DNA from: Octopus vulgaris
Taxonomy: Eukaryota
Reading direction: 5' to 3'
Assembly: GCA_951406725.2 (NCBI GenBank)
Contig: OX597814.1
Span: forward strand, 22,444,001-22,508,000
DNA: 64,000 nucleotides
The stretch's first letter is position 1. Each line of letters begins with the position of its first letter. The notes beneath the pieces are model-generated. The model did no database searches. It saw only the letters and a program-made list of their open reading frames with translations, and had not been told where the DNA came from. Shown piece by piece: positions 4,575-63,245 of this stretch. The position numbers were made by a program, and so were the translations under genes.

Positions 4575-7500
4575 ATTCGGAAGTCCTGCGGCGATGGGAA
4601 GGTGGTGAAGCATGCTACATGACGGGTTGGAAGCATGTAGTCAGCGACCTGCCCGTAGGTGGCCCATGTTAGATATAAAGTCGTCTCGTTGTCGCCCAAG
4701 ACAGCGGTAGGATTCGGTTGCTGCATGGGTGTCTGAGCAGCTCCATTTGGAGAGGGCACTGCTCACCTGGAGACCGGGGAGGTTCTGGAAAAGGTGAACC
4801 AAAAATTGCCTGTCTTTCCATATCTGGTCAGTTTAGCGCGACTGACGGATGCCCGCCCTGCGCTCGAAAAACAAAGAGCATTTTATCTATAAAATCTGGA
4901 CGGAACTTAAACATTTCATGTTGGAATGTGCGTACTCTGTTGGACAACAAGAGTGATTGCAGGCCTGAAAAACACACTGCACTTGTTGCTCGTGAGCTGA
5001 ACCGTTATAAAATTGATATAGCTGCACTCTCAGAGACTCGTATAGAAGGTGATGGTCAGCTTGAGGAAGTAGGAGGCGGATACATCTGTTTTTGGAAAGG
5101 AAGGCAGAAGGAGGAGCGCAGAGAGGCTGGTGTTGGTTTTGCAGTCCGATCTGATATCCTGAAGAAGTTGGAAGAGCTCTCTGTTCCTATAAATGAACGT
5201 ATAATGACCCTACGGTTGCACTTGAAAGGTAAGCGGTTTGCTACTCTAATAAGTGCATATGCACCTACTTTGACTAGCTGTGATGAAGATAAAATAATCT
5301 TTTATACCCAGCAGAGAGCCATACTTAGAAAAATCCCCAATTCTGATAAAGTCATTCTACTGGGGGATTTTAATGCCAGAGTAGGAACAGACTGGCAAAC
5401 ATGGAACTCTCTAGGACGTTTTGGAGTAGGGAAAATGAATAGCAATGGTCTCATGCTATTGGAGCTTTGCGAATAACATGGACTTTACATTGCAAGTACT
5501 TCTTTTGTGCACAAAGGTGATCACACAACATGGATGCATCCAAGGTCCAAAGTTTGGCACTTGCTGGATTACGTCATCATCCGCAAGCGCGACATTTATG
5601 ACATTTGTAACGTCAAGTCCTTGCATGGATCAGAATGCTGAACAGACCATAGTCTGGTGCGAGTAAAGTTCCGAATGGTGATTAGGGCGAAAGAGAGAAG
5701 AGAACCAGTCAGCATTCCTCGCCGTCTAAATGTCCACAAGGTATATGACGTTGTGGTTAGGAAAGAGCTTCAGACTCGCTTGTCCAGCATTGAAACTGCT
5801 GCAGCATGGGAAGATCTTCGAGACCAGGTTGTTCAATGTGCAGCCGAAACACTGGAGTATGTTACTGCCAGACACAGACTGGTTTGATGAGAATGATGCT
5901 GAAATTCAACGACTATTAGTGGTGAAGCGCCATGCCCACAGTGTGTTGCTGCACAGAGAACTGTCTACTGTGCAGCGAAGTCTAGCACTTGCCCACTATA
6001 ACAGTGTAAAATCACTACTGCAGCGATCTCTCAGGAAGATGCAGAACACTTGGTGGGAGGATCTTGCTCGTGATGTTCAGGCTGCTGCTGATGCAAATGA
6101 CAGCAAGAAGCTTTACCATCTTATGAAGCGAGCTTATGGACCTAAGCGCTCCACATCAGCTCCTTTGCTTTCCAAGGAGTCTTCCACTCTGTTTACTAAA
6201 TCAACAGAAATCACAGGTCGCTGGATCGAACACTTCTCTGAACTCCTAAACCATGAGTCAGTTGTGGATGAAACAGTGATTGATACTATGAAACAAAGAC
6301 CTATCATTGACACCTTAGACTCCTCGCCATCAATACATGAAGTAATGACATCAATAAGTAAATTGAATCTTGGTAGGGCACCTGGAAAGGATGGAATTTG
6401 TGCTGAGGTCTTGTGATTTGGTGGTAATTGCATCACACAGTCCCTTCATGAACTTATTAGTGCAGTCTGGAGGGATGGTGCAATCCCTAAGGACTGGAAG
6501 GATGCAATTATTCTTCCTCTATATAAAGGAAAAGGAGCCAGAACAATGTGTGGTAACTACAAAGGTATTGCTCTACTATCAGCTGCTGGCAAGGTTCTGG
6601 CAAATATTCTTCTTACCCGTCTGAATGGGTGTCTCGTAAATGATGACCTATCTGAATCTCAATGTGGCTTCCGAACTGGTAGAGGGACAATGGATATGAT
6701 TTTCACAGCTAGACAGATGCAGGAGAAGTGCTATGAGCAGATTATGGATCTTGTCCAGGTATTCATTGATTTAACTAAGGCCTTTGGTACTGTAAATAGG
6801 GCCTTTCTGTGGAAAATACTTGGCAAACTTGGATGTCCGGATCGCTTTGTATCTATAATTGAATCATTTCATGCTGGGATGGAGACTTGGGTCAATGTTG
6901 GTGGTGCCATGGCGGGACCCATTCATGTAGAGAATGGTGTTAAGCAGGGTGACATCCTTGCCCAAACTCTCTTTTCTTTGTACTTTGCTGCTATTTTTAC
7001 TTATGCTTCTGCTAAGGTTAGCTCTCTGGGAATATATGTCATATATCGATCTTATGGCCGCCTCTTTAATCTTCGCCGATTTGCTGCCAATTCAAAGGTT
7101 TCCCAGTCTATTATTCGTGACCTCCTTTATGCAGATGACTGTGACTTAGTCACTCATACAGTGGATGACAGGCAAATACTCATGAATTGCATTTCTGCTT
7201 CTTGCAGGGCATTTGGACTCAGCATTAGCCTGGACAAGACTGTTGTAATGTTCCAGCCTGCACCAGGAAATCCATATATAGAACCAGCTATCTTGGTTGA
7301 AAGAACAATTCTGAAGGTAGTAGACAAGTTTGTCTACCTGGGAAGCACACTCAGCCGTTCTTGCTCCCTGGATGAGGAAATATCTTTCAGGTTGCAGAGA
7401 GCAACTAATTCCTTCCGGTCTCTTCAGTCTCGTATCTGGTCCCAACATGGCATCGCAAGGGGAACAAAAGTTGCTGTGTACCGTGCTTGTGTACTGACAT

Positions 7501-8111
7501 CGCTTCTCTACTCATGTGAGACATGGACTTTGTACAAACGTCAGGTAAGGGTCCATGAACGTTTTCATCAGAGATGTCTCAGACACATTCTCAATGTTGG
7601 CTTGACCTTAAAAATTCCAGACACACAGATCCTGAGGACAGCTGATATCTTGAGTATTGAGGCGATGGTACACAAGCACGGGTTACGTTGGACTGGACAC
7701 CTTATTAGAATGGAGGATAGAAGGATCCCTAAGCAGATGCTCTATGGAGAACTTGTGAATGGAAGGAGACTCCGGCAGAAACCAAGGCTGCGATTTAAGG
7801 ACTGTGTCAAGTCCTCGTTAAAGGCCTTTGATATGCAGGACACTGACTGGGAGAACAATGCCTGTCATCGCCACAGATGGAGGAAGCAGGTTAAGGAGGA
7901 GATCGACACTTTTGAGAGAGCACGTATACAGCATGAAGAACTTAAGCGAGCTGCGCGAAAGGGCACGGCTCGTATAGTGAATGGGGAAAGCTTGGTCTGC
8001 AATGTTTGCAGTCGTGTATGCTTGTCAAGAGCAGGGCTCATTAGCCACCAACGGAGCCGCAAATGCAAAATATAAGTTAGTCCTAGAGCGCACAATGTTC
8101 CTGAGTGGATG

Positions 8112-8118
<7 letters not shown>
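4575..8118 (+). mobile_element. Near full-length RTE-clade LINE (AP endonuclease + reverse transcriptase + C-terminal C2H2 finger), inactivated
   Basis: APE motifs WNVRTL, ALSETR, SAYAPT, LGDFNARVG (4718-5476); RT motifs ESQCGFR, FIDLTKAF, GVKQGDIL, YADD; LRWTGH; CNVCSRVCLSRAGLISHQR (6546-8075); stops and frameshifts near 5476, 5880, 6416; ends in (TA)n. Confidence 0.95.
6546..8075 (+). pseudogene. RTE reverse transcriptase domain and C-terminus (open 509-aa segment of a disrupted ORF)
   Basis: ORF track; YADD and other RT motifs; upstream part of the ORF is interrupted. Confidence 0.9.
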
Positions 8119-8160
<42 letters not shown>

Positions 8161-8164
<4 letters not shown>

Positions 8165-8490
8165 TATTTATTACCAAATTGACGTGGCAGTCCAGAGAAA
8201 TAGGACGAATACTGATGTTGATTAGCTCAGAGAGGCGATCGCTTCTAGCTAGCTATATGATGCACATACCTGCGTCCATAAACCTTCGAACAGGGGAGGT
8301 CATCAGCTTCCCTTTGCTGGTTTGGCATCCACAGACCGGTTTCGGAGTAGCTTCTCCTCATCAATGTGGAGCGGCCGAGTCCAGCTGGGGTTGCTGTAGA
8401 TCTCTGTTCGATGGTTTTGCTTATATACATTCAGTGATTTTCAAAAATAGAAATGCTATAATTTCTAAATATCTCTAAAGAGACTATATA
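8161..8490 (-). mobile_element. Diverged retrozyme-like unit related to the 363-bp repeat
   Basis: Shares attagctc..gaggc.atcgc, aaccttcgaaca.gggaggtca, atctctgttcga.ggttt and ttttcaa.aatagaaat with 10755-11480; contains a hammerhead. Confidence 0.8.
8328..8370 (-). ncRNA. Minimal type-I hammerhead ribozyme
   Basis: Minus strand: UCCACA UUGAUGA GGAG aagcua CUCC GAAA CCGG UC^UGUGGA; 6-bp stem I, 4-bp stem II, palindromic stem/loop III, GUC site. Confidence 0.88.
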
Positions 8491-8599
8491 TCTGTGTGGA
8501 ATCGTTTCGTTAGATTGTCTCAAGTTCTGCAATTAATTTTAAACTGGTTGGTGACCATAGCTGGGTGCAATAGGTAAAGCGGCTTAGGACAATTGTCCT

Positions 8600-10620
8600 A
8601 CAGAAAACCATCATGGTTTCATGATCTCTTGTTTTAAAATCCATCCGGTCAGCCACCTGCATTCTCTTGCCAACTTAGCAACATGTACACGAAAGGATGC
8701 ATCGTTATTCATGTAAATGTCCAGATTTCGTATTGACTGTGTCTCTTGGATTGTAATCCCTTCAGGTCCATTGTATTTAATTGGTATTGCATTTAGTCTT
8801 GCATGCTGATAGTATAGGGCTTGAAACTTTTCAGCATTAAACTGCATGCTATTCTTCTTAGCCTACTTGTATATTCAACTCACGTTGCAAGTGCATAACG
8901 TTTTCAGGGTTCTGTATCACCTGTGAGACTTTTTTATTATCTGCATAACTTGTGATCTTGGCTCTCTGTTTGGCTGAGGGCATATCTGAGAGGGCCAATA
9001 TGAACAGTAATGATCCCAAAACAGTGTCTCGCGGAACACCACTCACTATTTGTATGCAATTGGAGGTGGCCCTATTGGCTACTACTGCTTGACTTCTATC
9101 TTTCAGAAAGTCATGTAGTCATTCTCCCAATTTCCAGACTATACCGAGATCTCGCAGTTTGTGACATATCATTCCATGATCGACTTTATCGGAAGCCTTT
9201 GCAAATTCGAGATATATCACATTCCCATTTGAAATGGTTGAGCAGCTGTTTCCACACTCAGTCATAGTTTTGTAAGAGCGGAGTCAGGCAGCTTCTTTCA
9301 AGTTATTGGGTGTCAGTCTGCATGTAATTTTTCTCAAGGAAGGGGATTAGTTTTCTGCTGACTATTCGTTCCATGACTTTGCTGATGTGCGAGATCAGAG
9401 AGATTGGACTGTAGTTTTGGGCCTCTGATCTGCTATCTTCTTTATGGATGGGGCATATTTTCCCTTTTTTCAGCTTGCTTGGAAGTTTTCCTGTTGCAAA
9501 GAAGCTCTGGAAGAAAGATTGCAGTAGTGTTGCTAGGACTCACAGGATTTTAAAAGGATTGCTGGGAATGCATCATGGCCAGTAGCTGAGTTCAAGTTCA
9601 ATTCATCTATAGCCCTTATTAAATCGTCTTCTTTTATATTGATGTAATCAATCATCACTGCCTCTGTTTTCATATCTGCTGTGGCGAAAAAATCAGCTGG
9701 ATTGCTGAAGTCAAGGGGGGAGTGAAAACACTTGAATTGCTCATTTAGTATTTCATTTATCCTCATTGGGCTTCCTGCGGTTGAACCATCTTTATCGAAG
9801 AGTGGCCCTACCCTGCAGTGCACGGAGGCTGTTTCTTTGGCAAACTTGTAGAAGTCTCTGGGGTTAGATTTTACATTGTCTGTAGCCCAGGCTTCTTTGT
9901 CTGTTCTTTGTATTTTCAGGTGGGTTTTTTCACTGCTTTCAATTTGTTTGTTAATGCGATATGAAATTTATGTACGGCGTCTCATAAGAACTTCCCCTCC
10001 CCAGAGATTTTGTTTTTGTGTACAGTGGCCTTTCTCTCCGGGACACATCTGTAGCATATGACTTGCATTACAGACATGAATTGTTGAAGTTTCATATCGA
10101 TGTTCGGTGTAGAGAGTCATTTAGGCCAGTTTTGTTTGATGATCTCTTTCTCAGTTTGTTTCCAGTTTGCCTTATGGAAGTTCAAACTGGAGACATTTTG
10201 AGAGATTTTTGTTGGCTGCATGTCCATGGTTTCCCTTGATCTGTACAGGGTCAGTTCTACCATATTGTGATCTGAGAGTAGTGTCGGTGTAACTTTCACA
10301 TTATGGATAAGATCCATATTATTTATGAAGCAGAGATACAGTATATTACATGCCCTGGTTAATTGGAGTACTATTTGTTCCATTTACAAAGTGTTGCTGA
10401 GGTTCAGGAGAGATATCACCTGTCCTTGTTTGCAACACACCATTCCAGGGAGAGAAAAGCCCTCAGGCTATCTGATGTTGGACAGATTGAATTCTCCCAT
10501 AAGGGGTACTCTTATGTGTTGTTCTAATGTAACTAGAACTTTTTCTGTTTTTGTAAGGCAGTCTTCAAACTTTTCCTCGCGATTCGAGGGTGATATGTAG
10601 TACATATAACTATATTGAAT
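8600..10620 (-). mobile_element. Degraded CR1/L2-group LINE (APE + RT fragments)
   Basis: SGVPRDTVLGSLLFILALSD..SYADN (RT), MQFNAEKFQAL, NSATGHDAFPAILLKSC, PTLLSDHNMV (APE SDH motif); many frameshifts. Confidence 0.85.
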
Positions 10621-10718
10621 GGCCTTATATATACAATTAGTGTCTCACACGCATATACACAAGCGTAAATATACATACAGATATACACTTACAGGTCTCT
10701 TTCTCTCTCTCATTCACT

Positions 10719-10757
<39 letters not shown>

Positions 10758-10983
10758 GAAATATCAAAATTACTAAGTCTCTCTAAAAGAGAACAACGGC
10801 AGCGTTCCCGGAAAATAATAGTTATCGCCATACTAATATGGCATTCTTATAAAAATAAGAATAAAGCTGTCCGCTTATTAGCTCCATGAGGCCATCGCCT
10901 TAAGTTAGCTATTTGATACACAAACTGTATCCATATAACCTTCGAACAAGGGAGGTCAGTCGCTCCACACTACTTGACCGGCA

Positions 10984-11025
10984 GCTACAGACGCGTTTCG
11001 GGGTATTGCCCCTTTTCAATGTAGC
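10984..11025 (-). ncRNA. Minimal type-I hammerhead ribozyme, U3:A8 core variant (copy 1)
   Basis: Minus strand: GCUACA UUGAAAA GGGG caaua CCCC GAAA CGCG UC^UGUAGC; predicted cleavage between 10990 and 10989. Confidence 0.88.
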
Positions 11026-11346
11026 GTAGCCAGACCAGTAGGTGTCGCTTCTGACAATCTCTGTTCGAAGGTTTTATTTACCTAGCTTCGGTGGAATACA
11101 TCCACTTGTTTTCAATAATAGAAATATCAAAATTACTAAGTCTCTCTAAAAGAGAACAACGGCAGCGTTCCCGGAAAATAATAGTTATCGCCATACTAAT
11201 ATGGCATTCTTATAAAAATAAGAATAAAGCTGTCCGCTTATTAGCTCCATGAGGCCATCGCCTTAAGTTAGCTATTTGATACACAAACTGTATCCATATA
11301 ACCTTCGAACAAGGGAGGTCAGTCGCTCCACACTACTTGACCGGCA

Positions 11347-11388
11347 GCTACAGACGCGTTTCGGGGTATTGCCCCTTTTCAATGTAGC
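11347..11388 (-). ncRNA. Minimal type-I hammerhead ribozyme, U3:A8 core variant (copy 2)
   Basis: Same sequence as 10984-11025, offset by 363 bp. Confidence 0.88.
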
Positions 11389-12185
11389 GTAGCCAGACCA
11401 GTAGGTGTCGCTTCTGACAATCTCTGTTCGAAGGTTTTATTTACCTAGCTTCGGTGGAATACATCCACTTGTTTTCAATACATATATATATATACATATA
11501 AATGTGTGTGTGTGTGTGTGTGTAAATATATACTCACTAACATGCATCTAAACACATATAAAGGTGTGTATATAAGTATGTATAAATACATACGTATAGT
11601 TTTCTAACACTCGCATATCAATAGCATTGACAAAAAGATGACTTCAACATTAAGCTATACACAGTATTTCTTTCGCTTAAAATATTTCACTTCATTTATG
11701 AAGTTACATGTGTACAAACTTTCTGTTTCACTACACATTCATTTCATATAAATAATTAATTAATCAATCTTTTGTTGAGGTTTTAGTTAAAAGTTGGATT
11801 AAAAATTGCAAAAATGTGACGCTAAACTCATGTAATCTGTTCAGTATGTATCTGAAACTTTCAGATAAATATTTATACGCTTTTGATTAATTTATTATAG
11901 ATAAGTATTTGAAACATGGCAAAAACGAAAAAAAAAAACAAAAATCAATCATCGAATTTTATTTGATATATTACTATTTGAATAGAAACGCACAAGCCCT
12001 CGCATACACATAAAATTCCACACATGAAAATAGAAAAATCACGCTCACATGTGCGCGTTCAACACATTCACATATTATATGTATTAATATGATGTGTTAC
12101 ATATATATGTATATATGTATGCATATATATATGTATATATATGTATATATATGCATATATATGCATACATACATACATACATACA

Positions 12186-14499: not shown

Positions 14500-17400
14500 T
14501 ACCACACTTGCATACACAGAAGGCAAACACAAAAACACTCGCATGTAAAGAAGACACAAGCAAAACACACTTGTATATAAATGAGACACAAATCAGACAA
14601 GCTTGCAAATAAAGAAGACACAAGCAAGACTCACATGCAAATAGAGAAGACACAAGCAACACACACTTGTATATAAAGAAGACACCATCAAGACACACTT
14701 GCAAATAAAGATGACACAAGCAAAACACATTTGCATATACAAAAAGACACAAGCAAAACACACTTGCATAAAAAACCTCAAACAGATACACTTGCAAATA
14801 AAGAAGACACAAGCAAGAAAAACTTGCAAATAAAAAAGACACAAATAAGGCACGTTTGTATATAACGAAAACACAAGCAAGACACACTTGCATGTAGAGA
14901 AGACACAAGCTAGAAACAACTTTATATAAAGAAGGCACAAGGAAACACACTTTTATATATAAAAGACACAATCAAAATAGACTTGCATATAAACAAGAAA
15001 CAAACAAGACACACTTGTATATAAAGAAGTCACAAGCAAGACACAATTGCTTAGAAATAAGACACAAGCAAGACACTCTTGTATATAAAGAAGTCACAAG
15101 CAGGGTACACTTGCAAATAAAGAAGAAAGAAGCAAGACATGTTGGCATATAAATAAGACGCAAGCAAGAAACATTTGTATATAAAGAAGAGCCAAGCAGG
15201 ATACATTTGCTTAAAAAGATGATCCAGCAAGATACACTTGCACATAAAGAAGACACAAGAAAGACAGTCTTGTATAGTACGAAGATACAAGCAAAGCACA
15301 CTTGCATATTAAGAGGATGGAACGAAGACACACTTGGTATATAAAGAAGACACAAGCATGACACCCTTGCATAGAAAGAGGACAAAAGCAAGACACACTT
15401 GTATATAACGAACACACTAGCAGGACAAGCAGATAAAGACGATACGAACATGACACACAAATAAAGAAGGCAGAAGCAAGACACACCTTCAAATAAAGAA
15501 GACACAAACAAGTCACACTTGCTTATAAAGAAAGCACAAGCAAGAGGCACTTGCATGTAAAGAAGACACACGCTAGACATGCTTGTATATAACGAAAATA
15601 CTAGCCAGACACATCTGTATTTAAAGAAAACAGAAGTAAGTCACTTTCAAATAAAGAAGCCATAAACAAGACACGCATATAAAGAAGATACGAGCAAGCA
15701 AGACATACTTGCATAAGAAATAAAATCAGGCAAGACACACTTGCCAATAAAGAAGACAGAAGCAAGACATACATTTATATAAAGAAGACACAGGCAAGAC
15801 TCACCTGTATATAAAGAAGTCTGAAGTAGGACACACTTGCATATAAAGAAGACACTGGCCAGATACACTTGCAAATAAAGAAGACGCAAACAAGAAACAC
15901 TTATATATACAAAGAAGACACAAGTAAGACACACTTGCATGTAATGAAGACGCAAACAAGAAACACTTATATACAAAGAAGACACAAGTAAGACACACTT
16001 GCATGTAATGAAGACGCAAACAAGAAACACTTATATATACAAAGAAGACACAAGTAAGACACACTTGCATGTAATGAAGACGCAAACAAGAAACACTTAT
16101 ATACAAAGAAGACACAAGTAAGACACACTTGCATGTAATGAAGACGCAAACAAGAAACATTTATATACAAAGAAGACACAAGTAAGACACACTTGCATGT
16201 AATGAAGACGCAAACAAGAAACACTTATATACAAAGAAGACACAAGTAAGACACACTTGCATGTAATGAAGACGCAAACAAGAAACACTTACATACAAAG
16301 AAGACACAAGTAAGACACACTTGCATGTAATGAAGACGCAAACAAGAAACACTTACATACAAAGAAGACACAAGTAAGACACACTTGCATGTAATGAAGA
16401 CGCAAACAAGAAACACTTACATACAAAGAAGACACAAGTAAGACACACTTACATGTAATGAAGACGCAAGCAAGAAACACTTATATATACAAAGAAGACA
16501 CAAGTAAGATACACTTGCAAATAAAGAAGACGCAAACAAGAAACACTTATATATACAAAGAAGACACAAGTAAGACACACTTGCATGTAATGAAGACGCA
16601 AGCAAGACATACCTGCATATCAAGAAGACAGAAGCAAACGACATTAGCAAATAGAGAAAGCACAAGCAAGGAAGCATATAAAGAGACTATAAACAAGAAA
16701 AGCATGTAAAGAAGACACAAGCAAGACACACTTGTATATAAAAAATACACAAGCAAGGCACACCTGCATATAAAAAGAAAAACAGAAGCAAACCACACTT
16801 GCATGAAAAGAGGGTACAAGCAAAACACACTTGCATAAAACGAAAACTAAAAAAGGACACCCTTGCAAATAAAGACACAAGCAAGAAAAAATTGCATATA
16901 AAGAAGACACAAGCCAGACATAATTGGATCTAAAGAAGACACAAGCAAGACGCACTTTGATGTAAAAAAGACACAGGCAACACTTACTTGGATGTAAAGA
17001 AAACACAGGCAAGGCACACTTGTAAATAAAGAAGACACCAGCAAGACACGCATATAAAGAGGACACAAGTAAGACATTTGCATATAAAGAAGACACAAGC
17101 AAGACAGTTGCATATAAAGATACAAGCAAAAGACACTCGCATATATAGAAGTCAATAGCAGGGTACATATGCATTCAAACAAGACAGAAGCAAGTCACAC
17201 TTCCATATAAAGAAGACACAAGGAAAACATACTTGCATATACAGAAGACAGAAGGATGACACATTTTCATACATAGAATATACAACCCAAATACACTTGC
17301 ATAGAAAGAAGACACAAGCAAGACACTCTTGTACATGACGAAAATACAAGCAAGATACGCATATAAAGAAGAGACGCACAAGACACACTTGCACATCAAG

Positions 17401-18410
17401 AGGACACTTGCAAAAAAGGAGGACACAAGCAAAACACACTTGCATATACAGAAAACACAAACAAGACACACTTGCATATAAAGAAACATAAGCAAAACAT
17501 ACTTGCATAGAAAGAAGATTCAAGGAAAAACACTTACATATAAAGAGGATACAAGTAAGAGACACTTGCTTATAAGGAAGACACAAGGAAGAGACGGATA
17601 TGAAGAAGACACAAGCAAGAAACGCATAAAAAAGAAGACACAAGCAAGACACACTTACATAGAAATAAGACGTAGACAATTAACACTTGAGTATAAAGAA
17701 AACACAAATAAGACACACTTGCATATAAAGAAGACACAAAAAACACACTTGCAGAAGCCATTGGCATATAAAAAAGTCATAAGCAAGACGCACCTTTATA
17801 TAAAGACACAAGTATGACACACTTGCATGTAAAGAAGATGGAAGCAAGACACGTATATACAGAAGATACGAAAAAGAGACACTTACAAATAAAGAAGACA
17901 CAAGCCAAGACACACTTGCATATAAAGAAGGCACAAGCAAGATACGCTTCCATGTGAAAAAGACGGAGGGAACACAGTTTCCTAAAAAGAAGACACAAGG
18001 AAGAGACAGTTGTATATATAAAGAAGACACAAGCGAGACACACTTGCATATACAAAAGACACATGCAAGAAATACTTGCATGTGTAAAGAAGGCAGAAAC
18101 AAGTCACTTTGCATATATTGAAGACGCAAGCCAGACACACTTCCATATAAAACACAGTAGCATAAAAAGAAGTCACAATCAAGAACACCTCCGTATACAG
18201 AAGACACAAGCAAAACGAACTTTTATATAAAGAAGGCACTATCAAGACACACTAGTATATAAAGAAGACGCAAGCAAGACACACTTTTATATAAAGACAC
18301 ACCAAGACACGCATATAACGACGACACAAGCAAGACACGCTTGTATATAAGGAAGTCATAAGCAAACACACCTGCACAGAAAGAAGACACAAGCAAGACA
18401 CACTTGCTTA
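14500..18410. repeat. ~3.9-kb minisatellite of ~32-bp monomers (consensus ~acacacttgcatataaagaagacacaagcaag) with a homogenised 64-bp dimer core
   Basis: Monomer visible throughout; near-identical 64-bp units at ~15880-16600 (ORF starts step by 64: 16160, 16224, 16288, 16352, 16416, 16480). Confidence 0.95.
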
Positions 18411-18689
18411 TGTGTGCATAACTAGTTCTTTGTTCGTTTTTTTACTTGTTTATTGAGCGTACAGTTGGTGGTCTATCAGAGAACAAAACAAGTATCGGAT
18501 TGAAATAAGAAATGGGTCGATATAATCGATGATGATCCATTGAATTGACTCCTTCATTATCGCCGCAATCCAATGACAGGAAGCATTGAAATATTATAAG
18601 AAAAAATGAACAGGGATGACTTGCGTCTAAACAAGAGTAGCAGACTATTCCATGAATATAAATGAAATTATTGGAGAAACTATTGACAG

Positions 18690-26914: not shown

Positions 26915-28260
26915 ATTATAAATCTTCCACTGAAGAGGGAGCCAGTTGCCAACAAAGATACAAGTCTCCATCTTTGGGATGTAGTTAACAGACAAATTCA
27001 CATTTGGAACTAGAGAAAAGTATTGCATATTTTTACTCCTCCAATCACAGATTGCACTTTTAATGTACGAATCAGCCACACGATTTCTCTTTCTGTAAAT
27101 CCCAGTTCATCCAGATTGTCTTTTAAGCATTTACTAACAAAACCTAGAGCTTCAATTATTATTGGTATGAATATGAATTCATAGTCTGGATATAGAAGCT
27201 GGAGGCTTTTGAAGCAGCTGTCCATAGATATCCTCTTTTTCTTTAATTTTCAAGGATATATTTATATATGCAGGTCAGCCGATCTCTATGATGGTACATA
27301 CCTTTTCTCCTTTGACCCAAAGAACAATATCCGGCCTATTATGTATACATTTGACAGAAGTTTTGATGGGAATATTTCACTAGTATTCCTTGAGTTGGTG
27401 TTGATGAATGTATTCCATAACAGAAGGATTTTCTAAGTTTATATAAGGACAGTCTTTTTTTCCGGATAACATTGTAAATTGTTTTAGCAACAACATCGTG
27501 CCGCATAGGGAGGTAGTACAGTAACAACATTTTAGGACAGCTGCTAATCACATTTGTAATGTATTCCACAGGAACATAGGCTACACATGTAGTTGCACCT
27601 TGGGATTAAAAGAGCATCAGTGTATTTCTTGTTCATCAGGTACTTTGTGGCAATCTCCTGTTTCTGGATTGCAAATGTATAGCCTTCAAAGTGTGATGTT
27701 ATGTAGTGGTCTTGTTTCCATGTGAGGCTGCACTTTGTGTCAATTTTACTGTCTTCTTCAAGCTTCCTGGAAACACACCCATGCATAGTCTTTTTTTCTT
27801 TTTTGTATGCTAAGTGCTTTCCATCCAGGTCTTCTCTTAGGTAAGAGAGCCCAGCTGTTTTGGGGTTGTGTAGGAGATCATTAGGGAGAGAGTGTTTCTT
27901 GAGAAGTTCACTGTCAATTTGTACAATGCTGCTTACTTCACTTTTCAGCACTGCATTTATATATTTAGTTTTGCTGCTGTTGTTCAGTAGGTGCTGCCTG
28001 AGTGATACCATATTGCATTCGAAGGCCGTCTTCACTGATCTCAGGCCTCTACCACCTTCATTTCTTCTTATGAAGAGCCTGTCAACATCACTGTTTCTGT
28101 GGAAGTTCCCAGTTGTCAGGATTTTGCGGGTTTTGATATCTCTGGAGTGGATTTCTACTACAGTCCGATCAAATATCTCAAATGTTGGGATCAGCACTGT
28201 ACAGCAAATGCATACTGTTTTGTTGTTCCGACTGTCATGTTTTCCTAAGTCTGGTGTAAC
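26915..28260 (-). mobile_element. R4/Dong-type non-LTR retrotransposon 3' fragment (second subfamily)
   Basis: DIKTRKIL..FHRNSDVDRLFIRRNEGGRGL, EGYTFAIQKQEIATKY, CSLC..VISSC..MRHDVVAK, FIPIIIEALGFV in successive frames. Confidence 0.88.
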
Positions 28261-28335
28261 ATTCTCGGGTCACTCTATCTTTATTCACAGTGCCTCCATA
28301 TGATACATTTTCGTCTATGTCTAGGTACTAAGTCT

Positions 28336-32950: not shown

Positions 32951-34276
<1,326 letters not shown>

Positions 34277-34290
34277 CTACCCCCTACCTA
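34277..34290 (-). promoter_or_regulatory. Polypurine tract (also at 37517-37530)
   Basis: TAGGTAGGGGGTAG on the minus strand immediately before the LTR. Confidence 0.85.
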
Positions 34291-34346
34291 AGCTTTTGTC
34301 GACCCGACAAAGCATAACAAACCCCCAGCTCCGAGGGCGAGCTCCA

Positions 34347-36221
34347 TCAGACGTTCCAGGAAGTGGAGGTCCCCTTGGGTGGTTTCTCCTCCGGGGGTCT
34401 CACCTCCCACGGCCACCACTTCAGCACCAGCCACAGGTTGGCACCTTCCCTCTGCGGCTTGGGTAACACCTCCGCCAACGCCGCCAGGCTTCCTACTAGC
34501 CGCCCACAATAGGCGCACCGTCCGAGGAAGTTCCTCAAATCCCTCACACAGGAAGGGTCCGGCCAATCCTTCACAGTGGCCACCTTCCTCAGGGCTCTAT
34601 AGCCCACGTAGCACCTTGCTGTACCATCCCCATTCCGCGCAATTATCGCTGACGACCACGGACTATTCTGTCCTTTCACTGCTCCCTGTCGCCGATATCT
34701 CCTCTTGCGCTGCTGTACTGAGACCTTCCTCCGGCCTCGCTGCTTCCTCAAGCGACAACCGCCTTGGTCGACGAAACGTTCTGCCAGGTCCGTGCGACCA
34801 GCATCCAACAACCCTCGCGACCAACGTCCTGCACTCTTCACCAACGGTTGCTTCTTCCGCAACTGCATCAGCGGACCACGATCTCCCTTAACTTCATCAC
34901 TGCACCGGCAGAACTGACCCCGCCGCTGGTTCACCGTCCGGCGCAGTTCCACGATTTGCCCTCTGCAAATCGCCTGCGCAGCCTTCAATAACTCGGCCGA
35001 CCCAACCAGCGCTCTGTCGGCCTCTGCCTCCACCAGGGTCCAGCCGACCCTCAATTGAGCTCTTACTCCGCACTGCATGTCGGGCTCCACCGGCCCCACG
35101 CAACCATCGAATACAGAGCTCCCCCAAGTGCCAACAAAGCACCAGCGACTCCTTGCGGACCGCTTCCTCAACTGCATCCGTGGGCCACCACCTCCTTCAA
35201 CTGCGTTGCCGTATCGGCAGAGCTGGCCCCACCACTGGTTCGCCATCTGGCACGATTCCTCGATTTGCCTTCTGCAAATCGCCTGTGCCACTTCCAAAAG
35301 ATCGGCCGATCCAGCCAGCGCTCCACCAGCTTCTGCTTCCACTAGGGTCCACCCGACCCTCAATCGAGCTTTCACTAGGCACTGCCTGTCGGGCTCCACC
35401 GGCCCCAAGCAACCATCAACCACAAAGCTCACCCAACGCTGAAGCAGTCTTCCTGGTCTCGGTGGACCCACCACCGTTCGCAGCCGTCTCGCCTCGTCAA
35501 CGGGCCTGGTCCTTTTCCTCACCAGCTTCCGTCCCGCAGGCCTCACAACACACACGCCCGGCCGCCAGTCCATCCACGCCTGTGGCCTCTCCACAGTGGG
35601 AACAATACAGTCCCTCTGGGCCCCAAGAGACAGGAGTCCAGACACCAAAGGACTCGCACACGGCACAACACCTGCCGCGACCATCACACACAGAGCCGGA
35701 ACCTCGGACTCAGCGACATCCGCCCCAGACCTCGCCAGCTCTTCGTCCTGAGCTCCGAGAGACAGGGGTCGAGATGCCAAGGGCTCCAGACACGGAACAA
35801 CAGCATCAGCCATAACACCTTCCACAGGCCTTTTGGTTACTTCAACCTCTACGGGTTCCAAATCACAAGATTTCTTGGGTACAGCGTCACAAATTTCGGC
35901 AACCAGCCCAGGTTCCGCAAACACAGCCGGTCCAGCATCACAGATTTCGGCAACACTTCCTTCACTATCTGTTTCCCTCGATGCTTCGTTCGAGGGGCAA
36001 TCTCTGCCCACAGGACCGTCGCTATCCTCGGTCCAACACCGATCCTTCAAAGCTGACCCATCCGCAACCTCAAGCTCCCGCTGATCTGCCCACAGGCCCT
36101 GTCGCCTCCTGTCCATTCTCTCCACGAACGCGTCCGTCTGCGCCATCTGGCCCCTTAACATCTCCACAATCAGAGCAAGCGAAATCTCCTCGTCTCCGGT
36201 CTGACAACCAGACAAATCCAT
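34347..36221 (-). CDS. Internally deleted gag/pol-derived ORF (624 aa from ATG), copy 1
   Basis: Uninterrupted ORF; RT N-terminal remnant NSPWSSAIIARNGDGTARCYVGYRAL fused to RT C-terminal KVATVKDWPDP..LRNFLGRCAY; no YxDD, RNase H or integrase seen. Confidence 0.75.
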   Translation of the reverse strand: MDLSGCQTGDEEISLALIVEMLRGQMAQTDAFVERMDRRRQGLWADQRELEVADGSALKDRCWTEDSDGPVGRDCPSNEASRETDSEGSVAEICDAGPAVFAEPGLVAEICDAVPKKSCDLEPVEVEVTKRPVEGVMADAVVPCLEPLASRPLSLGAQDEELARSGADVAESEVPALCVMVAAGVVPCASPLVSGLLSLGAQRDCIVPTVERPQAWMDWRPGVCVVRPAGRKLVRKRTRPVDEARRLRTVVGPPRPGRLLQRWVSFVVDGCLGPVEPDRQCLVKARLRVGWTLVEAEAGGALAGSADLLEVAQAICRRQIEESCQMANQWWGQLCRYGNAVEGGGGPRMQLRKRSARSRWCFVGTWGSSVFDGCVGPVEPDMQCGVRAQLRVGWTLVEAEADRALVGSAELLKAAQAICRGQIVELRRTVNQRRGQFCRCSDEVKGDRGPLMQLRKKQPLVKSAGRWSRGLLDAGRTDLAERFVDQGGCRLRKQRGRRKVSVQQRKRRYRRQGAVKGQNSPWSSAIIARNGDGTARCYVGYRALRKVATVKDWPDPSCVRDLRNFLGRCAYCGRLVGSLAALAEVLPKPQREGANLWLVLKWWPWEVRPPEEKPPKGTSTSWNV

Positions 36222-36259
36222 AGCGAAAAAGAACCGATCGAAACGCAACAATCAGGACA

Positions 36260-36277
36260 ATCCCACTTCTGACACCA
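36260..36277 (-). promoter_or_regulatory. Primer binding site complementary to the tRNA-Leu 3' end (also at 39500-39517)
   Basis: TGGTGTCAGAAGTGGGAT, 2 nt from the LTR end. Confidence 0.9.
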
Positions 36278-36279
36278 GT

Positions 36280-37516
36280 TGTTAAGGAACGGACGGGATC
36301 GCCCGCCGTCGCTCGTCCCGAACGGCTCACACAAGTTCCGCCACGGAACCCAGAGAGGAGGAGAGGGGAGAGATACTACAACAACCACAACCTCAGCAGC
36401 ACAGAGATACAGAGGCACAACCCGAGATACAACCCAAAGAGGCAAGGCAACAACTGGCAACACTGGCTTATATTCAAACAACAGTTTATACGACAATTAC
36501 AATTGTTACAACATCAAGATACATCAAAGCATGCACGTGACTACTCAATACATAATACAACATCATGTAACAATTCAAGAGTACACGTCCCAAGACAACA
36601 GTTCTTTAAAGTCTCTTCCTAAACATCAACAGATAACGTTCACAGTTCTTTATAATCTTTTTCTACACATATCAACACAATTCTGAACATAAATACCACA
36701 ATCGACATATCGACAAGTCCTTGACTGTTCTTTTCACTGTTCATTTCTTTTCACTGTCTCTTTACATTGTGACACGCATCAATACACAATCACATACCTT
36801 AATTCCCAACTGAATCACCAGTGTCCCATTCTGCACCTCATCTCTCCGTACATATTCCCTTCTGTGCCGCTAAGTTCTCTCGCATCCCAACTTGCTCCTA
36901 AGATTCCACCGCTTGCTCCTAACTTCCAAGAATCCGACTGTGTTCTTCGAGGACCGACCACCGACTGCAAGATCCGTCTGTGTTCTTCGACGACCGCTCA
37001 ACGACTGCCCTTCTTGACGACCAACTGCGAACTGCCCAAAACCTCACCTCCTCGTCCTGACTTCCACTACCTCATCTCCCTCTCTCTATATCGCTCATAC
37101 CCTTTCTAACTGCTCTCTTATCCTTATACTCTATCTCTATTCTCAATCTGTCCCTTACTGCTTATAGCCTCTCTATCTGCTCTCTGATCTTACTGCCTAT
37201 CTCTATCACCTGCTGCCTATTACCCTCTCTATCTGTCCCTTTTCTCTTACTGCCTATCTCTATCGCCTGCTGCCTATTACCCTCTCTTGACAGCTCTACC
37301 ATACTCTCTGCCTGTCCCTCTCTGCCCCCTCATCCTCTCTCACGACATATTCAAGGGGTGTCCAGAGCGACCCCTAATTCACCCGCACAAGGTCACAGGT
37401 CATTCCAAAACCCATTAGTCCTCCATTAAACAAAAGACTGTGACTTTTCTACTAGACATGCCGGAACCATCATTCCTATGTGGGTCAGAAACACTGCACT
37501 AGTTAAACCCGTAACA
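36280..37516 (-). repeat. Middle LTR
   Basis: TGTTAAGG...CCGTAACA; appears identical to 39520-40756. Confidence 0.95.
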
Positions 37517-37586
37517 CTACCCCCTACCTAAGCTTTTGTCGACCCGACAAAGCATAACAAACCCCCAGCTCCGAGGGCGAGCTCCA

Positions 37587-39461: not shown

Positions 39462-39519
39462 AGCGAAAAAGAACCGATCGAAACGCAACAATCAGGACAA
39501 TCCCACTTCTGACACCAGT

Positions 39520-59500: not shown

Positions 59501-59581
59501 AAGGGTGAAAAGGAACACACGAGTTGATATATATGAAAAAATAAGTCAAAAATAGAAAATGCTAAAATAATTTATAGTGAA

Positions 59582-59629
59582 CATTTCAGTACCGGTTTCA
59601 GTCATTTTGAGACCTTTTCAACTGTAACG
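59582..59629 (-). ncRNA. Minimal hammerhead ribozyme (U3:A8) in the Penelope 3' end
   Basis: Minus strand: cguuaCAG UUGAAAA GGUC ucaaaau GACU GAAA CCGG UA^CUG aaaug. Confidence 0.78.
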
Positions 59630-60412
59630 ATTAAATAATTAAATTTAGAAAAATTAGAAGAAAAGTTTTTTTAAAAGAATATTTCTATAGTAGTGTTCAG
59701 ATTTAAGTGGCATTCTGCCTTTCTCTGACTCCCTTGTTTGCACTTGTGTGTCGGAGGTCGTTGTGAGTTCTTGGAAGGGTAGTAGAGGAAGAAGGCTGGT
59801 GGGGAAAGGGGGATGGGAGAATCTGGGAGTGCCCTGATGGTCGTATTTTGAATGGTCAGTGGCGGCTGGCAGTCTCAGTTCAATTCAGGAGAATATTTAT
59901 ATTGACAGGCTTGTTTATAGAATTAGCGTAGGTGTTATACTAAAAAACATTAGTGACAAAGTTAAGGGGTGGGGGTGGAGAAGTAGAGGAAGAAGAAGAA
60001 GAAGAAGAAGGAGAAGGAGAAGATGACGATGATGGTGGTGGTGGTGATGATTATGACGACGATGATGATGATAATGATGATGATGAAGAAGAAGAAGAAG
60101 AAGAAGGAGGAGAAGGAGAAGATGGTGGTGATGATGATGACGACGATGATGATGATAATGATGATGATGAAGAAGAAGAAGAAGAAGAAGGAGGAGAAGG
60201 AGAAGATGGTGGTGATGATGATGACGACGATGATGATGATAATGATGATGATGAAGAAGAAGAGGAAGAAGAAGAAGAAGAAAAAAACAGAGAAGGGGGA
60301 ATATGAATGGGTGTAAGTATAGCTATGAAGGGGCTGATTAGTAATGGATTCTATGGAGTGTAATATGTGTGTGTGTATATATATTTTTCTTTTATTCTAA
60401 AGTTGAGGTATA

Positions 60413-62233
60413 TTAATTGCTTGTCGTAGACCCGTTTAGAAGTGGCTTGTATTTTATAATAAAGAGATTTTCTTTACTTATTCGTTGTCTCGAGGTTGTA
60501 TCGTCCCTAAATTGGTAGAGGGGGAAAATTCTGAAGTTTGGTGTTTTTTTGTTGGCGCAAGTATCTATGTGTTGGCTAAAAGCTATTTTTCTGTTTTGGG
60601 GAATTTTTATCTGGGATCTGTGCAGGGCCATTCGTTTACGCAAACCATTTTTTGTTTGGCCTATGTACTGCTCTTGACACCCGGAGCAGGTTAGTGAGTA
60701 TATTAGGTTCTCCGAAGCACATGTGAAGTTGCTTTTCACTGTAAACCGTTGTCCCTGCTTGAAGGAGAACTCTGATCCCTCAATTAGATAGTCGCATATC
60801 CCGCAATTGGGTCTTCCACATTTTTTTACTGTCGGCTTCTGTGTTGAGGAGTGAATTCGGGCTTGTGTAAGGAGACTTTTCATGGATCTAGGCTGTCTTT
60901 TGCTTTTTATGATCGTGTGTGTTTGGAGGATTGTGTTCATTCTGTGGTCTTTTTTTAGGAGGGGTATGTTGTGGAGGATGGTGTCGAAGGCTTCGTTATT
61001 GAGAGGGTTGTGTGTGGAGATGTATGGTAAGGCTTTTGGTTGTAAGTTTTTCTTTGTTTTGGGATGTCTCAGTTCCTTGATGTTAAGTTGAAGGGCACGT
61101 TGAATGCACTTGTCAATAAGTGAAGGTGGATAGTTCCTGGTGATTAGGGTATCTTTTAGTTCTTGTAGTCGTGTGTCTCTGGTGTTTGCGTTAGAGACTA
61201 TAGTGCATATCCTTTTTGCTAGATTGAAGGGGATATTCATCCTGGTGTGTCTGGGGTGGCATGAATTGAATGGAAGATATTGCTTAGAGTCTGTAGGCTT
61301 ATAGTATATGTCTGTTTCTATTATATTATTAGCTTTCTTAATGAGGATATCGAGGAAGGGGAGTTGTTGTTGGCTATATTCCATCGTGAATTGGATGTTT
61401 ACGTCCAGTCCGTTTAAAATTTTCTGGAATTCTATGAGTTTTCCTATATTTTTATGCCAAAGGATGAAACAGTCATCTAGATATCTCTTCCAGTTGTTTT
61501 CTATGTAGATGGAGAAAGGGCTGCCATATCTTTCTAGAACCTTACGATACAGACTGATCTCTAGGTATCCTATGACTAGGTTGGCAAAGGAGGGGGCCAT
61601 TCGTGTACCCATCGCAGTCCCCGATTTTTGTCGGTAGAAGTTGTCATTGAAGGCGAAGAAGTTATTTTCCAGGATGAATTTGACCCCTTCTATCACAAAT
61701 TCTTTTTTGATGCGGTGTGGTAGTTCGTTGGCGTGATTCTCTAGCCAGAATTGGATTGCCTCTAGTCCTAGGTTGTGGGGGATATTGGAGTAGAGGTTGA
61801 CTACATCGAAGGATACCAGTATGGTGTTTTTGTTTATAGTATTCGGTAGGTGATTGAGCATATCTAAGTCGTCCCTTATATAGCTTTTGACATGTTTGAG
61901 GAGTGGTTTTAACAGGGTGTCTAAAAAGTTACTGAGGCGGTGGGTTTCGCCTGCGGGACCTGCTATTATGGGTCTCAATTTGAGGTCATTAGGATTAGGG
62001 ACTTTAATTATTTTGTCTGTAGCTATCTTGCATGCGTTGCTTATTTTTTCACTTTTGTGGATCTTAGGTATACCGTAGAATTGGCTAGTTTTACTTGTGA
62101 AATTGGTCATATAATCATATTCTTTGTCGGTGAGCCCTGCTTTGTATGGGTTTAATATGGATTTTAGTTCCCTCATTATTTTTTGTTGACTGTAGTTTTG
62201 TGCCTTTTCATAGTATGTTGTGTCTTCCAGCAT
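60413..62233 (-). CDS. Penelope-like reverse transcriptase / GIY-YIG endonuclease (606-aa open, N-truncated segment; Neptune-like Cys linker)
   Basis: FYGIPKIHK, LRPII, SFDVVNLYSNI, QKSGTAMG, WKRYLDD, FLDI, YYKPT; CGRPNCGIC linker; NLIYSLTC..C...YIGQT..LRKRMALH. Confidence 0.95.
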   Translation of the reverse strand: MLEDTTYYEKAQNYSQQKIMRELKSILNPYKAGLTDKEYDYMTNFTSKTSQFYGIPKIHKSEKISNACKIATDKIIKVPNPNDLKLRPIIAGPAGETHRLSNFLDTLLKPLLKHVKSYIRDDLDMLNHLPNTINKNTILVSFDVVNLYSNIPHNLGLEAIQFWLENHANELPHRIKKEFVIEGVKFILENNFFAFNDNFYRQKSGTAMGTRMAPSFANLVIGYLEISLYRKVLERYGSPFSIYIENNWKRYLDDCFILWHKNIGKLIEFQKILNGLDVNIQFTMEYSQQQLPFLDILIKKANNIIETDIYYKPTDSKQYLPFNSCHPRHTRMNIPFNLAKRICTIVSNANTRDTRLQELKDTLITRNYPPSLIDKCIQRALQLNIKELRHPKTKKNLQPKALPYISTHNPLNNEAFDTILHNIPLLKKDHRMNTILQTHTIIKSKRQPRSMKSLLTQARIHSSTQKPTVKKCGRPNCGICDYLIEGSEFSFKQGQRFTVKSNFTCASENLIYSLTCSGCQEQYIGQTKNGLRKRMALHRSQIKIPQNRKIAFSQHIDTCANKKTPNFRIFPLYQFRDDTTSRQRISKENLFIIKYKPLLNGSTTSN

Positions 62234-63096
62234 AGAGACAACGAATAAGTAAAGAAAATCTCTTTATTACAAAATACAAGCCACTTCTAAACGGGTCTAC
62301 GACAAGCAATTAATATACCTCAACTTTAGAATAAAAGAAAAATATATATACACACACACATATTACACTCCATAGAATCCATTACTAATCAGCCCCTTCA
62401 TAGCTATACTTACACCCATTCATATTCCCCCTTCTCTGTTTTTTTCTTCTTCTTCTTCTTCCTCTTCTTCTTCATCATCATCATTATCATCATCATCGTC
62501 GTCATCATCATCACCACCATCTTCTCCTTCTCCTCCTTCTTCTTCTTCTTCTTCTTCATCATCATCATTATCATCATCATCGTCGTCATCATCATCACCA
62601 CCATCTTCTCCTTCTCCTCCTTCTTCTTCTTCTTCTTCTTCATCATCATCATTATCATCATCATCGTCGTCATAATCATCACCACCACCACCATCATCGT
62701 CATCTTCTCCTTCTCCTTCTTCTTCTTCTTCTTCTTCCTCTACTTCTCCACCCCCACCCCTTAACTTTGTCACTAATGTTTTTTAGTATAACACCTACGC
62801 TAATTCTATAAACAAGCCTGTCAATATAAATATTCTCCTGAATTGAACTGAGACTGCCAGCCGCCACTGACCATTCAAAATACGACCATCAGGGCACTCC
62901 CAGATTCTCCCATCCCCCTTTCCCCACCAGCCTTCTTCCTCTACTACCCTTCCAAGAACTCACAACGACCTCCGACACACAAGTGCAAACAAGGGAGTCA
63001 GAGAAAGGCAGAATGCCACTTAAATCTGAACACTACTATAGAAATATTCTTTTAAAAAAACTTTTCTTCTAATTTTTCTAAATTTAATTATTTAAT

Positions 63097-63144
63097 CGTT
63101 ACAGTTGAAAAGGTCTCAAAATGACCGAAACCGGTACTGAAATG
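63097..63144 (+). ncRNA. Minimal hammerhead ribozyme (U3:A8) in the inverted Penelope end
   Basis: cgttaCAG TTGAAAA GGTC tcaaaat GACC GAAA CCGG TA^CTG aaatg; predicted cleavage after 63136. Confidence 0.82.
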
Positions 63145-63187
63145 TTCACTATAAATTATTTTAGCATTTTCTATTTTTGACTTATTT

Positions 63188-63245
<58 letters not shown>

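What the first reader, a model, noticed from the sequence alone, without database searches (positions are those of the whole stretch)
10755..11480. 363-bp tandem dimer with one hammerhead per unit: candidate retrozyme / self-cleaving circular RNA
Seen: two apparently identical non-coding 363-bp units inside a (TA)n tract. On the minus strand each has GCUACA UUGAAAA GGGG caaua CCCC GAAA CGCG UC^UGUAGC, which fits a type-I hammerhead with a GUC cleavage site. Established: animal non-LTR retrozymes are tandem units of a few hundred nt whose hammerheads excise monomers that circularise; minimal hammerheads with a palindromic stem III (here ACGCGU) are thought to work as dimers, and a tandem pair supplies the partner. 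Inference: a transcript cut at 11353/11352 and 10990/10989 would release an exact 363-nt monomer able to circularise and be re-copied by an RT. I do not know whether this family has been described.
Basis: partly seen in the sequence, partly recalled or inferred. Interest (0 to 1): 0.92.

Follow-up and report, generated by a model that had tools for sequence, protein, structure and literature searches.

The report
Hammerhead retrozyme riding Penelope retrotransposon machinery
The 363-base doublet is one copy of an abundant non-coding jumping element with a self-cutting RNA motif, and the shape of its copies suggests how such elements are pasted into animal genomes: a Penelope-type enzyme starts copying the RNA at two fixed points, probably on a circle.

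Summary
Confirmed: two identical 363-bp units (10755-11480), each with a type I hammerhead on the minus strand. The core is the U3-A8 variant known from Penelope-like elements (PLEs). The unit is a young, dispersed family with over 1,000 insertions. Older and sister families keep the helices, the core and the stem III palindrome by compensatory change, one with the canonical C3-G8 core, so the ribozyme is under selection. It is an animal non-LTR retrozyme, not the end of a longer element. The copies carry the PLE signature: (TA)n targets, two fixed start sites 63 nt apart, and inverted arms. Of 82 two-armed insertions, 77 pair one arm from each site. Both arms share one haplotype, in 40 of 76 neither arm could be a copy of the other, and 107 of 207 arms run through the cleavage site. 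Best model: a PLE reverse transcriptase primes one RNA twice and copies it round a circle. An uncut multimer template is not excluded. Cleavage, circles and the partner PLE are not shown; RNA data were uninformative.

The parts
10755..11117 (-). Retrozyme unit 1 (363 bp), next to the fixed end of the insertion
11118..11480 (-). Retrozyme unit 2, identical to unit 1; the arm stops at the unit boundary
   Evidence: both units share two variants against the family majority, at unit positions 11 and 268
11341..11396 (-). Type I hammerhead of unit 2: helix I with distal extension, U3-A8 core, helix II, palindromic stem III; predicted cut 11353/11352
10978..11033 (-). Type I hammerhead of unit 1; predicted cut 10990/10989
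10990..11352 (-). Predicted 363-nt monomer between the two cut sites; highly self-paired; circle inferred, not shown
10752..10758 (+). Start site A (ATAATAG): fixed outer end used by this insertion; 1,125 exact (TA)-joined matches in the genome
10815..10821 (+). Start site B (second ATAATAG, 63 nt from A): internal here, but the fixed outer end of the inverted arm in other copies; 324 exact (TA)-joined matches
10721..10754 (.). (TA)17 target tract
8162..8483 (-). Decayed copy of an older related retrozyme family (71% over 220 nt), hammerhead core at 8334-8364
59503..63195 (-). Young Neptune-type PLE insertion (RT + GIY-YIG ORF 60413-62263) with inverted arms, a tailed and an untailed end in (TA)n, and U3-A8 hammerheads at 59590-59621 (-) and 63105-63136 (+); example of the kind of element that could mobilise the retrozyme, not shown to be its partner

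Best explanation
A non-autonomous Penelope-dependent retroelement (animal non-LTR retrozyme). A tandem copy is transcribed on the hammerhead strand (inferred). Two adjacent hammerheads pair their palindromic stems III and cut out a 363-nt monomer, which is ligated to a circle (inferred from known retrozymes). A PLE protein nicks both strands of a (TA)n tract and uses the two 3' ends to prime cDNA on the RNA at two internal sites, A and B, 63 nt apart (ends shown; enzyme inferred). Each RT copies for a variable distance, past the ribozyme site and for up to 5.5 units (shown), most simply by strand displacement round the circle (inferred). The two cDNA ends are then joined head to head at a few bases of microhomology (shown). 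If only one priming succeeds, a one-armed array such as this dimer results.
For: Ends: 125 curated insertions from 123 of 136 end-selected loci give A+B 77, A only 30, B only 13, A+other 4, A+A 1, B+B 0; 82 of 82 two-armed copies have outward-facing fixed ends. Independent choice of sites is rejected (log10 L -22.4 vs -1.9). Both flanks TA-rich in 73 of 81. The Neptune family shows the same tailed-plus-untailed pairing in the 3 of 6 inspected two-armed loci where both outer ends were in view and in the window copy. This matches the two internal RT start sites found in vitro for a PLE (PMC11167929). One template: at 8 diagnostic sites, discordance is 8 of 496 within an arm, 5 of 240 between arms, 21,742 of 60,940 between insertions; 10 variants private to one insertion are in all its covering segments, 7 across both arms. 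Two primings: in 40 of 76 A+B copies neither arm is contained in the other. Read-through: 107 of 207 arms pass the cut site, 31 pass two, 4 stop within 2 nt against 2.7 expected; 203 of 203 junctions have no indel. Ribozyme under selection: 9 of 17 hammerhead pairs change on both sides, 92.9% of cells paired, core position 7 takes A, C, U or G; a collinear 359-nt sister family (55.5% identical outside the hammerhead, above 300 of 300 shuffles) has C3-G8 in one subfamily and U3-A8 in another.
Against: No cleavage or circle was observed; no run is on record as RNA and contigs cannot show ends. Homogeneous arrays do not separate a circle from a young uniform multimer: the register test gave 0.91% (132 of 14,563) against 1.03% (176 of 17,080), a small non-significant lean towards multimers, and two copies (L006, L159) share a variant in the same-numbered unit of both arms. 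Only 133 young insertions were sampled, so 'private' variants may be fixed in an unsampled donor. Some arrays look locally duplicated after insertion (L256, L278). Stops within 5 nt of the cut site are slightly in excess (10 vs 5.9). For the anole PLE, uncut RNA was the main substrate and the ribozyme was dispensable in vitro (PMC11167929); 8 of 9 Xenopus retrozyme dimers did not cleave in vitro (10.64898/2026.07.22.740005). No convincing sequence link to four PLE-type terminal families beyond the ribozyme core.
Confidence: 0.6

Rival explanations
1. Same element and same twin priming by a PLE protein, but the template is an uncut linear multimer transcript. The hammerhead cuts rarely or only trims flanking RNA, and arrays are kept long by local duplication.
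For: Read-through of the cut site fits equally. Uncut RNA was the dominant substrate of a PLE in vitro (PMC11167929). Register-matched variants in L006 and L159, and signs of local duplication in L256 and L278.
Against: Arms are short (median 220 nt; 64 of 207 exceed one unit), so a purely linear lineage would erode, yet tandem units persist across families 55-100% alike. Many haplotypes are uniform within arrays, which needs repeated monomer-to-multimer copying. No significant register effect.
Confidence: 0.27
2. The template is the ribozyme-cut linear monomer, and the RT jumps from its 5' end to the 3' end of the same or another monomer.
For: Gives uniform arrays; helix I holds the two ends together; slight excess of stops near the cut (10 vs 5.9).
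Against: A jump should often fail or add bases: 107 of 207 arms pass the site and 203 of 203 junctions are indel-free (control points were equally clean, 234 of 234 and 167 of 168).
Confidence: 0.09
3. The unit is only the terminal repeat of a longer autonomous Penelope element, or a satellite spread at the DNA level.
For: PLE-type ends and a PLE-type U3-A8 core; other findings of this scan resolved that way.
Against: 1,037 exact head-to-tail junctions. The 42 free-end flanks share no continuation at the junction. PLE protein hits in retrozyme loci (L005, L027, L050, L076, L117) lie apart from the unit. Fixed start sites and inverted arms on many contigs are not satellite behaviour.
Confidence: 0.04

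Closest known systems
Animal non-LTR retrozymes (Cervera and de la Pena 2020, PMC7229834; mussel family of 350-390 bp)
   Same: Non-coding tandem units of 150-450 bp, under 50% GC, one type I hammerhead per unit, weak palindromic helix III, self-paired predicted circle, co-existing with PLEs.
   Different: U3-A8 core instead of C3-G8; short dispersed arrays with inverted arms and two fixed start sites, which the sections read do not describe; circles proven there, not here.
Retrozymes as non-autonomous PLE derivatives (Li, Clavereau and Pollet 2026, 10.64898/2026.07.22.740005)
   Same: Same conclusion that PLEs mobilise retrozymes.
   Different: That work rests on co-occurrence and pLTR homology in vertebrates and favours local tandem amplification; here pLTR homology is not detectable, the evidence is insertion anatomy, and the arrays look copied at insertion.
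EN+ Penelope-like elements: inverted pLTR and 'tail' (PMC3846280, PMC8557442) and two internal RT start sites (PMC11167929)
   Same: Partial tandems, inverted 5'-truncated arm, extension at one end only, (TA)n targets.
   Different: No ORF; tail of 63 nt against 30-40 nt; the self-priming explanation of the inversion (PMC3846280) cannot give the 40 of 76 copies where neither arm contains the other.
U3-A8 hammerhead variant of Schistosoma Cercyon PLEs (Cervera and de la Pena 2014, PMC4209133)
   Same: Same core covariation; the supplement lists UUGAAAA and UUGAUAA cores.
   Different: There a minority form (about 1,300 hits, mostly single); here the dominant core (9,012 matches vs 175 control) and present in a tandem retrozyme with canonical-sized helices.

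Membership tests
non-LTR retrozyme | Tandem non-coding unit of about 150-450 bp | tested here: met
   363 bp, up to 5.5 units, longest frame 65 codons
non-LTR retrozyme | Type I hammerhead in every unit | tested here: met
   Motif in both units; covariation; core is the U3-A8 variant; Rfam models do not match
non-LTR retrozyme | Multi-copy and mobile, without LTR or own ORF | tested here: met
   PBS and PPT were not searched for separately
non-LTR retrozyme | Stable self-paired monomer fold | tested here: met
   z = -7.33; 15 of 59 consensus pairs with compensatory change
non-LTR retrozyme | Self-cleavage in vitro | not testable with these tools
   needs a bench assay
non-LTR retrozyme | Accumulates as circular RNA | tested here: inconclusive
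   no run on record as RNA; contigs only
non-LTR retrozyme | Target-site duplication longer than 4 bp when present | tested here: inconclusive
   6 of 15 informative loci show one, mostly TA-rich; 108 of 123 loci are masked by (TA)n
PLE-mobilised element | Two start sites with a tail at one end, and an inverted truncated arm | tested here: met
   77 of 82 two-armed copies are A+B
PLE-mobilised element | Active EN+ PLE in the same genome with the same target | tested here: met
   133 scored hits at 98-100% identity without stops, of 26,326 candidates; (TA)n ends
PLE-mobilised element | Terminal sequence homology with an autonomous partner | tested here: inconclusive
   6 units against 4 terminal families: best cases 2 of 200 shuffles, on AT-rich stretches; most PLE families were not examined
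autonomous PLE or its pLTR | RT/GIY-YIG ORF between the repeats | tested here: not met
minimal PLE hammerhead (min-HHR) | Short helix I, long helix II, no helix III | tested here: not met
   helix I 6+5 bp, helix II 4 bp, 2-bp palindromic helix III

The most novel reading that the evidence does not exclude
One circular 363-nt ribozyme RNA is primed twice, at two structure-defined sites, by a dimeric Penelope RT that holds both nicked target strands; two rolling-circle cDNAs meet head to head. That would be the general origin of the PLE tail, inverted pLTR and tandem, read here from a natural non-coding substrate, and would replace self-priming on antisense RNA.
Probability: 0.42. Interest if true: 0.75.

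Novelty: new member of a known kind. Interest (0 to 1): 0.55.

Why it matters
Which enzyme spreads animal retrozymes, and how PLEs make their tandem, inverted, tailed insertions, are both stated as open in the papers read (PMC7229834, PMC8557442, PMC11167929). This family gives over a thousand young insertions of a 363-nt substrate, with near-identical stop-free PLE ORFs in the same genome. The A+B rule, shared haplotypes and read-through make a circle-versus-multimer experiment directly possible with a short RNA. It also offers a natural C3-G8 / U3-A8 ribozyme pair in one scaffold.

Tried and rejected
Rfam: only microsatellite-driven miRNA hits below threshold and one E=7.7 hit; no hammerhead. 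tRNA-derived SINE: ARAGORN found 0 genes in 8000-12000; an A-box-like 12-mer lies on the opposite strand only, with no B-box match and none in the sister family; rejected. Partner search: no convincing homology to four terminal families; an apparent shared AT-rich motif near site A did not beat shuffles. Ten further U3-A8 loci gave a sister retrozyme clan and PLE-type ends, not a parent. Expression: no RNA holder listed; three runs guessed to be RNA cover all 28 bins, but some contigs run into TA flanks like host read-through, so this is no evidence either way. Fold-back as source of the inverted arm: rejected for 40 of 76 copies. Circle-versus-multimer register test: inconclusive. The canonical-core pattern is not enriched overall (187 vs 234 control); only its repeated rows at 359-360-nt spacing were used. 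Lunse et al. (PMC5785218) was not held. Earlier findings: none by sequence or in this genome.

Full report
Observation. The window holds two identical 363-bp units at 10755-11117 and 11118-11480, after (TA)17 and before a degenerate TA run. On the minus strand each carries a type I hammerhead with the cut after GUC at 11353/11352 and 10990/10989. Helix I has 6 bp plus 5 more past a bulge, helix II 4 bp, and helix III is the palindrome ACGCGU. The core is UUGAAAA, so the tertiary 3-8 pair is U-A, not C-G. Rfam gave no hammerhead match. The monomer between the cuts folds at -126.1 kcal/mol, z = -7.33.

Family. The genome is 2.8 Gb in 227 contigs; its size and microsatellite load suggest a cephalopod, which is my recalled guess and was not tested. 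The 30-nt core occurs 892 times exactly, control 0. Head-to-tail junctions occur 1,037 times. Related subfamilies at about 80-88% and an older family at about 71% exist, one copy of the latter at window 8162-8483. A collinear 359-nt sister family is 55.5% identical outside the hammerhead (162 of 292; above 300 of 300 shuffles) and has C3-G8 in L295 and U3-A8 in L286 and L287. Twenty of 24 listed sequencing runs, under six organism codes, hold at least half of the sampled words.

The ribozyme is under selection. In 19 aligned units, 9 of 17 hammerhead pairs change on both sides and 92.9% of cells pair; 0 of 500 shuffles reach the covariation score, though the sequences are related and the tool warns that this inflates the result. 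Core position 7, the free position, takes all four bases. Stem III stays palindromic while changing: ACGCGU, ACAUGU, ACCGGU, with predicted self-duplexes of -7.5, -4.6 and -8.3 kcal/mol. That fits dimeric cleavage as described for weak helix III hammerheads (PMC4209133). Outside the ribozyme, 15 of 59 consensus pairs are compensated. Activity itself is not shown.

Insertion anatomy. Copies end at two fixed points, both ATAATAG joined to (TA)n: site A (1,125 exact matches) and site B 63 nt further in (324; this pattern is specific to young copies). I took the first 30 listed plus 40 further loci for each end, removed 4 duplicates and dropped 13 of the remaining 136 as nested or complex, leaving 125 insertions in 123 loci. 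Types: A+B 77, A only 30, B only 13, A+other 4, A+A 1, B+B 0. All 82 two-armed copies are inverted with fixed ends outward, and most junctions overlap by 0-8 nt. Independent use of the sites is rejected. Both flanks are TA-rich in 73 of 81 two-armed loci; in one-armed copies 37 of 42 fixed ends but 11 of 42 free ends are. This is the tail-plus-inverted-pLTR pattern of endonuclease-bearing PLEs (PMC3846280, PMC8557442), and the tail of a PLE was shown in vitro to be the gap between two internal RT start sites (PMC11167929). The window's own Neptune-type element (59503-63195; RVT_1 and a sub-threshold GIY-YIG hit in a full copy; clade judged from the CX4CxxC motif per PMC8557442) shows the same pattern with about 32 nt between sites and a U3-A8 hammerhead. 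U3-A8 cores number 9,012 against 175 control.

One template, primed twice. At eight diagnostic sites, segments of one arm disagree in 8 of 496 comparisons, the two arms in 5 of 240, and separate insertions in 21,742 of 60,940. Among 133 young insertions, variants seen in only one insertion were in one segment 127 times, in some 5 times, and in all covering segments 10 times, 7 of these across both arms. In 40 of 76 A+B copies neither arm is contained in the other, so the inverted arm is not a fold-back copy. The self-priming model of PMC3846280 does not cover these.

The cut site is no barrier. Of 207 arms, 107 pass the first cut site, 31 a second and 9 a third; 4 stop within 2 nt against 2.7 expected, 10 within 5 nt against 5.9. 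Stops cluster instead at positions 188-198 and 265-275, in or beside stems. All 203 junctions recovered are indel-free, as are control points. So the usual template is a circle or an uncut multimer. For a circle: short arms would erode a linear lineage, and many haplotypes are uniform across an array. Against: the register test did not discriminate (0.91% vs 1.03% in 62 insertions), two copies share a variant in register, some arrays look duplicated after insertion, and published in vitro work found uncut RNA preferred (PMC11167929) and most frog dimers inactive (10.64898/2026.07.22.740005). I put the circle model at 0.6 and the multimer model at 0.27; PLE-driven twin priming is common to both.

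Not the end of a longer element. The 42 free-end flanks gave 13 pairwise hits, all at unlike offsets in other repeats, none continuing from the junction. PLE protein hits in five retrozyme loci lie apart from the unit. No partner was identified by sequence.

Expression. No run is on record as RNA. Contigs of three guessed RNA runs cover the unit, but cannot show ends, strand or circles.

Literature. Read: 10.64898/2026.07.22.740005 parts 1-3 of 5, through the discussion (supplements closed); PMC11167929 parts 1-2 of 4; PMC7229834 parts 2-4 of 6 (supplement unreadable, and it may list cephalopod retrozymes); PMC4209133 parts 1-2 of 4 and supplement passages; passages of PMC8557442, PMC3846280, PMC6765202, PMC12602865, PMC7761336. 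Searches showed no paper describing a cephalopod retrozyme, or start sites and inverted arms in a retrozyme; the library lacks most subscription journals, and Repbase and Dfam could not be checked.

Verdict. A real, young, abundant non-LTR retrozyme: a new member of a known kind, with a known but uncommon core variant. Its value lies in the insertion record, which ties retrozyme spread to PLE priming and makes the circle question testable. Interest 0.55.

Noticed in passing
window 59503-63195; full tandem at L151-L152: Very young Neptune-type PLE family, unit about 4.43 kb, with an upstream ORF1 (446 codons stop to stop, no Pfam hit) overlapping the 784-codon RT/GIY-YIG ORF by about 60 nt; an optional ORF1 is known in PLEs.
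   Followed up: partly
L295; L286, L287; rows: Sister 359-360-bp retrozyme clan with C3-G8 in some subfamilies and U3-A8 in others, arrays of several units and inverted arms.
   Followed up: partly
L181-L204, L285-L294: At least four further U3-A8 hammerhead families ending in (TA)n, one with two ends about 37 nt apart; U3-A8 is the dominant core in this genome.
   Followed up: partly
window 8162-8483: Decayed copy of an older retrozyme family with a U3-G8 core in this copy and U3-A8 in its relatives.
   Followed up: yes
unit positions 188-198 and 265-275: Arm ends cluster here (24 and 18 stops, about 3.2-3.4 times expected), at the long stem with the TTCGAA palindrome and at the 5' strand of helix I.
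   Followed up: partly
L098/L155, L073: Two retrozyme insertions of different age within 3 kb (L155), and one insertion duplicated with its flanks 1.1 kb away (L073).
   Followed up: no
window 4679-8075: Broken LINE with AP endonuclease and RT frames, RTE-like by recall.
   Followed up: no
window 33700-40500: 3,240-bp tandem of a GC-rich element with a 634-codon frame ending in a Gypsy-like RT remnant by recall.
   Followed up: no
window 14503-18411: 32-bp minisatellite array of about 3.9 kb.
   Followed up: no
window 27544-28269: Minus-strand frame of 241 codons resembling a non-LTR retroelement C-terminal fragment by recall.
   Followed up: no
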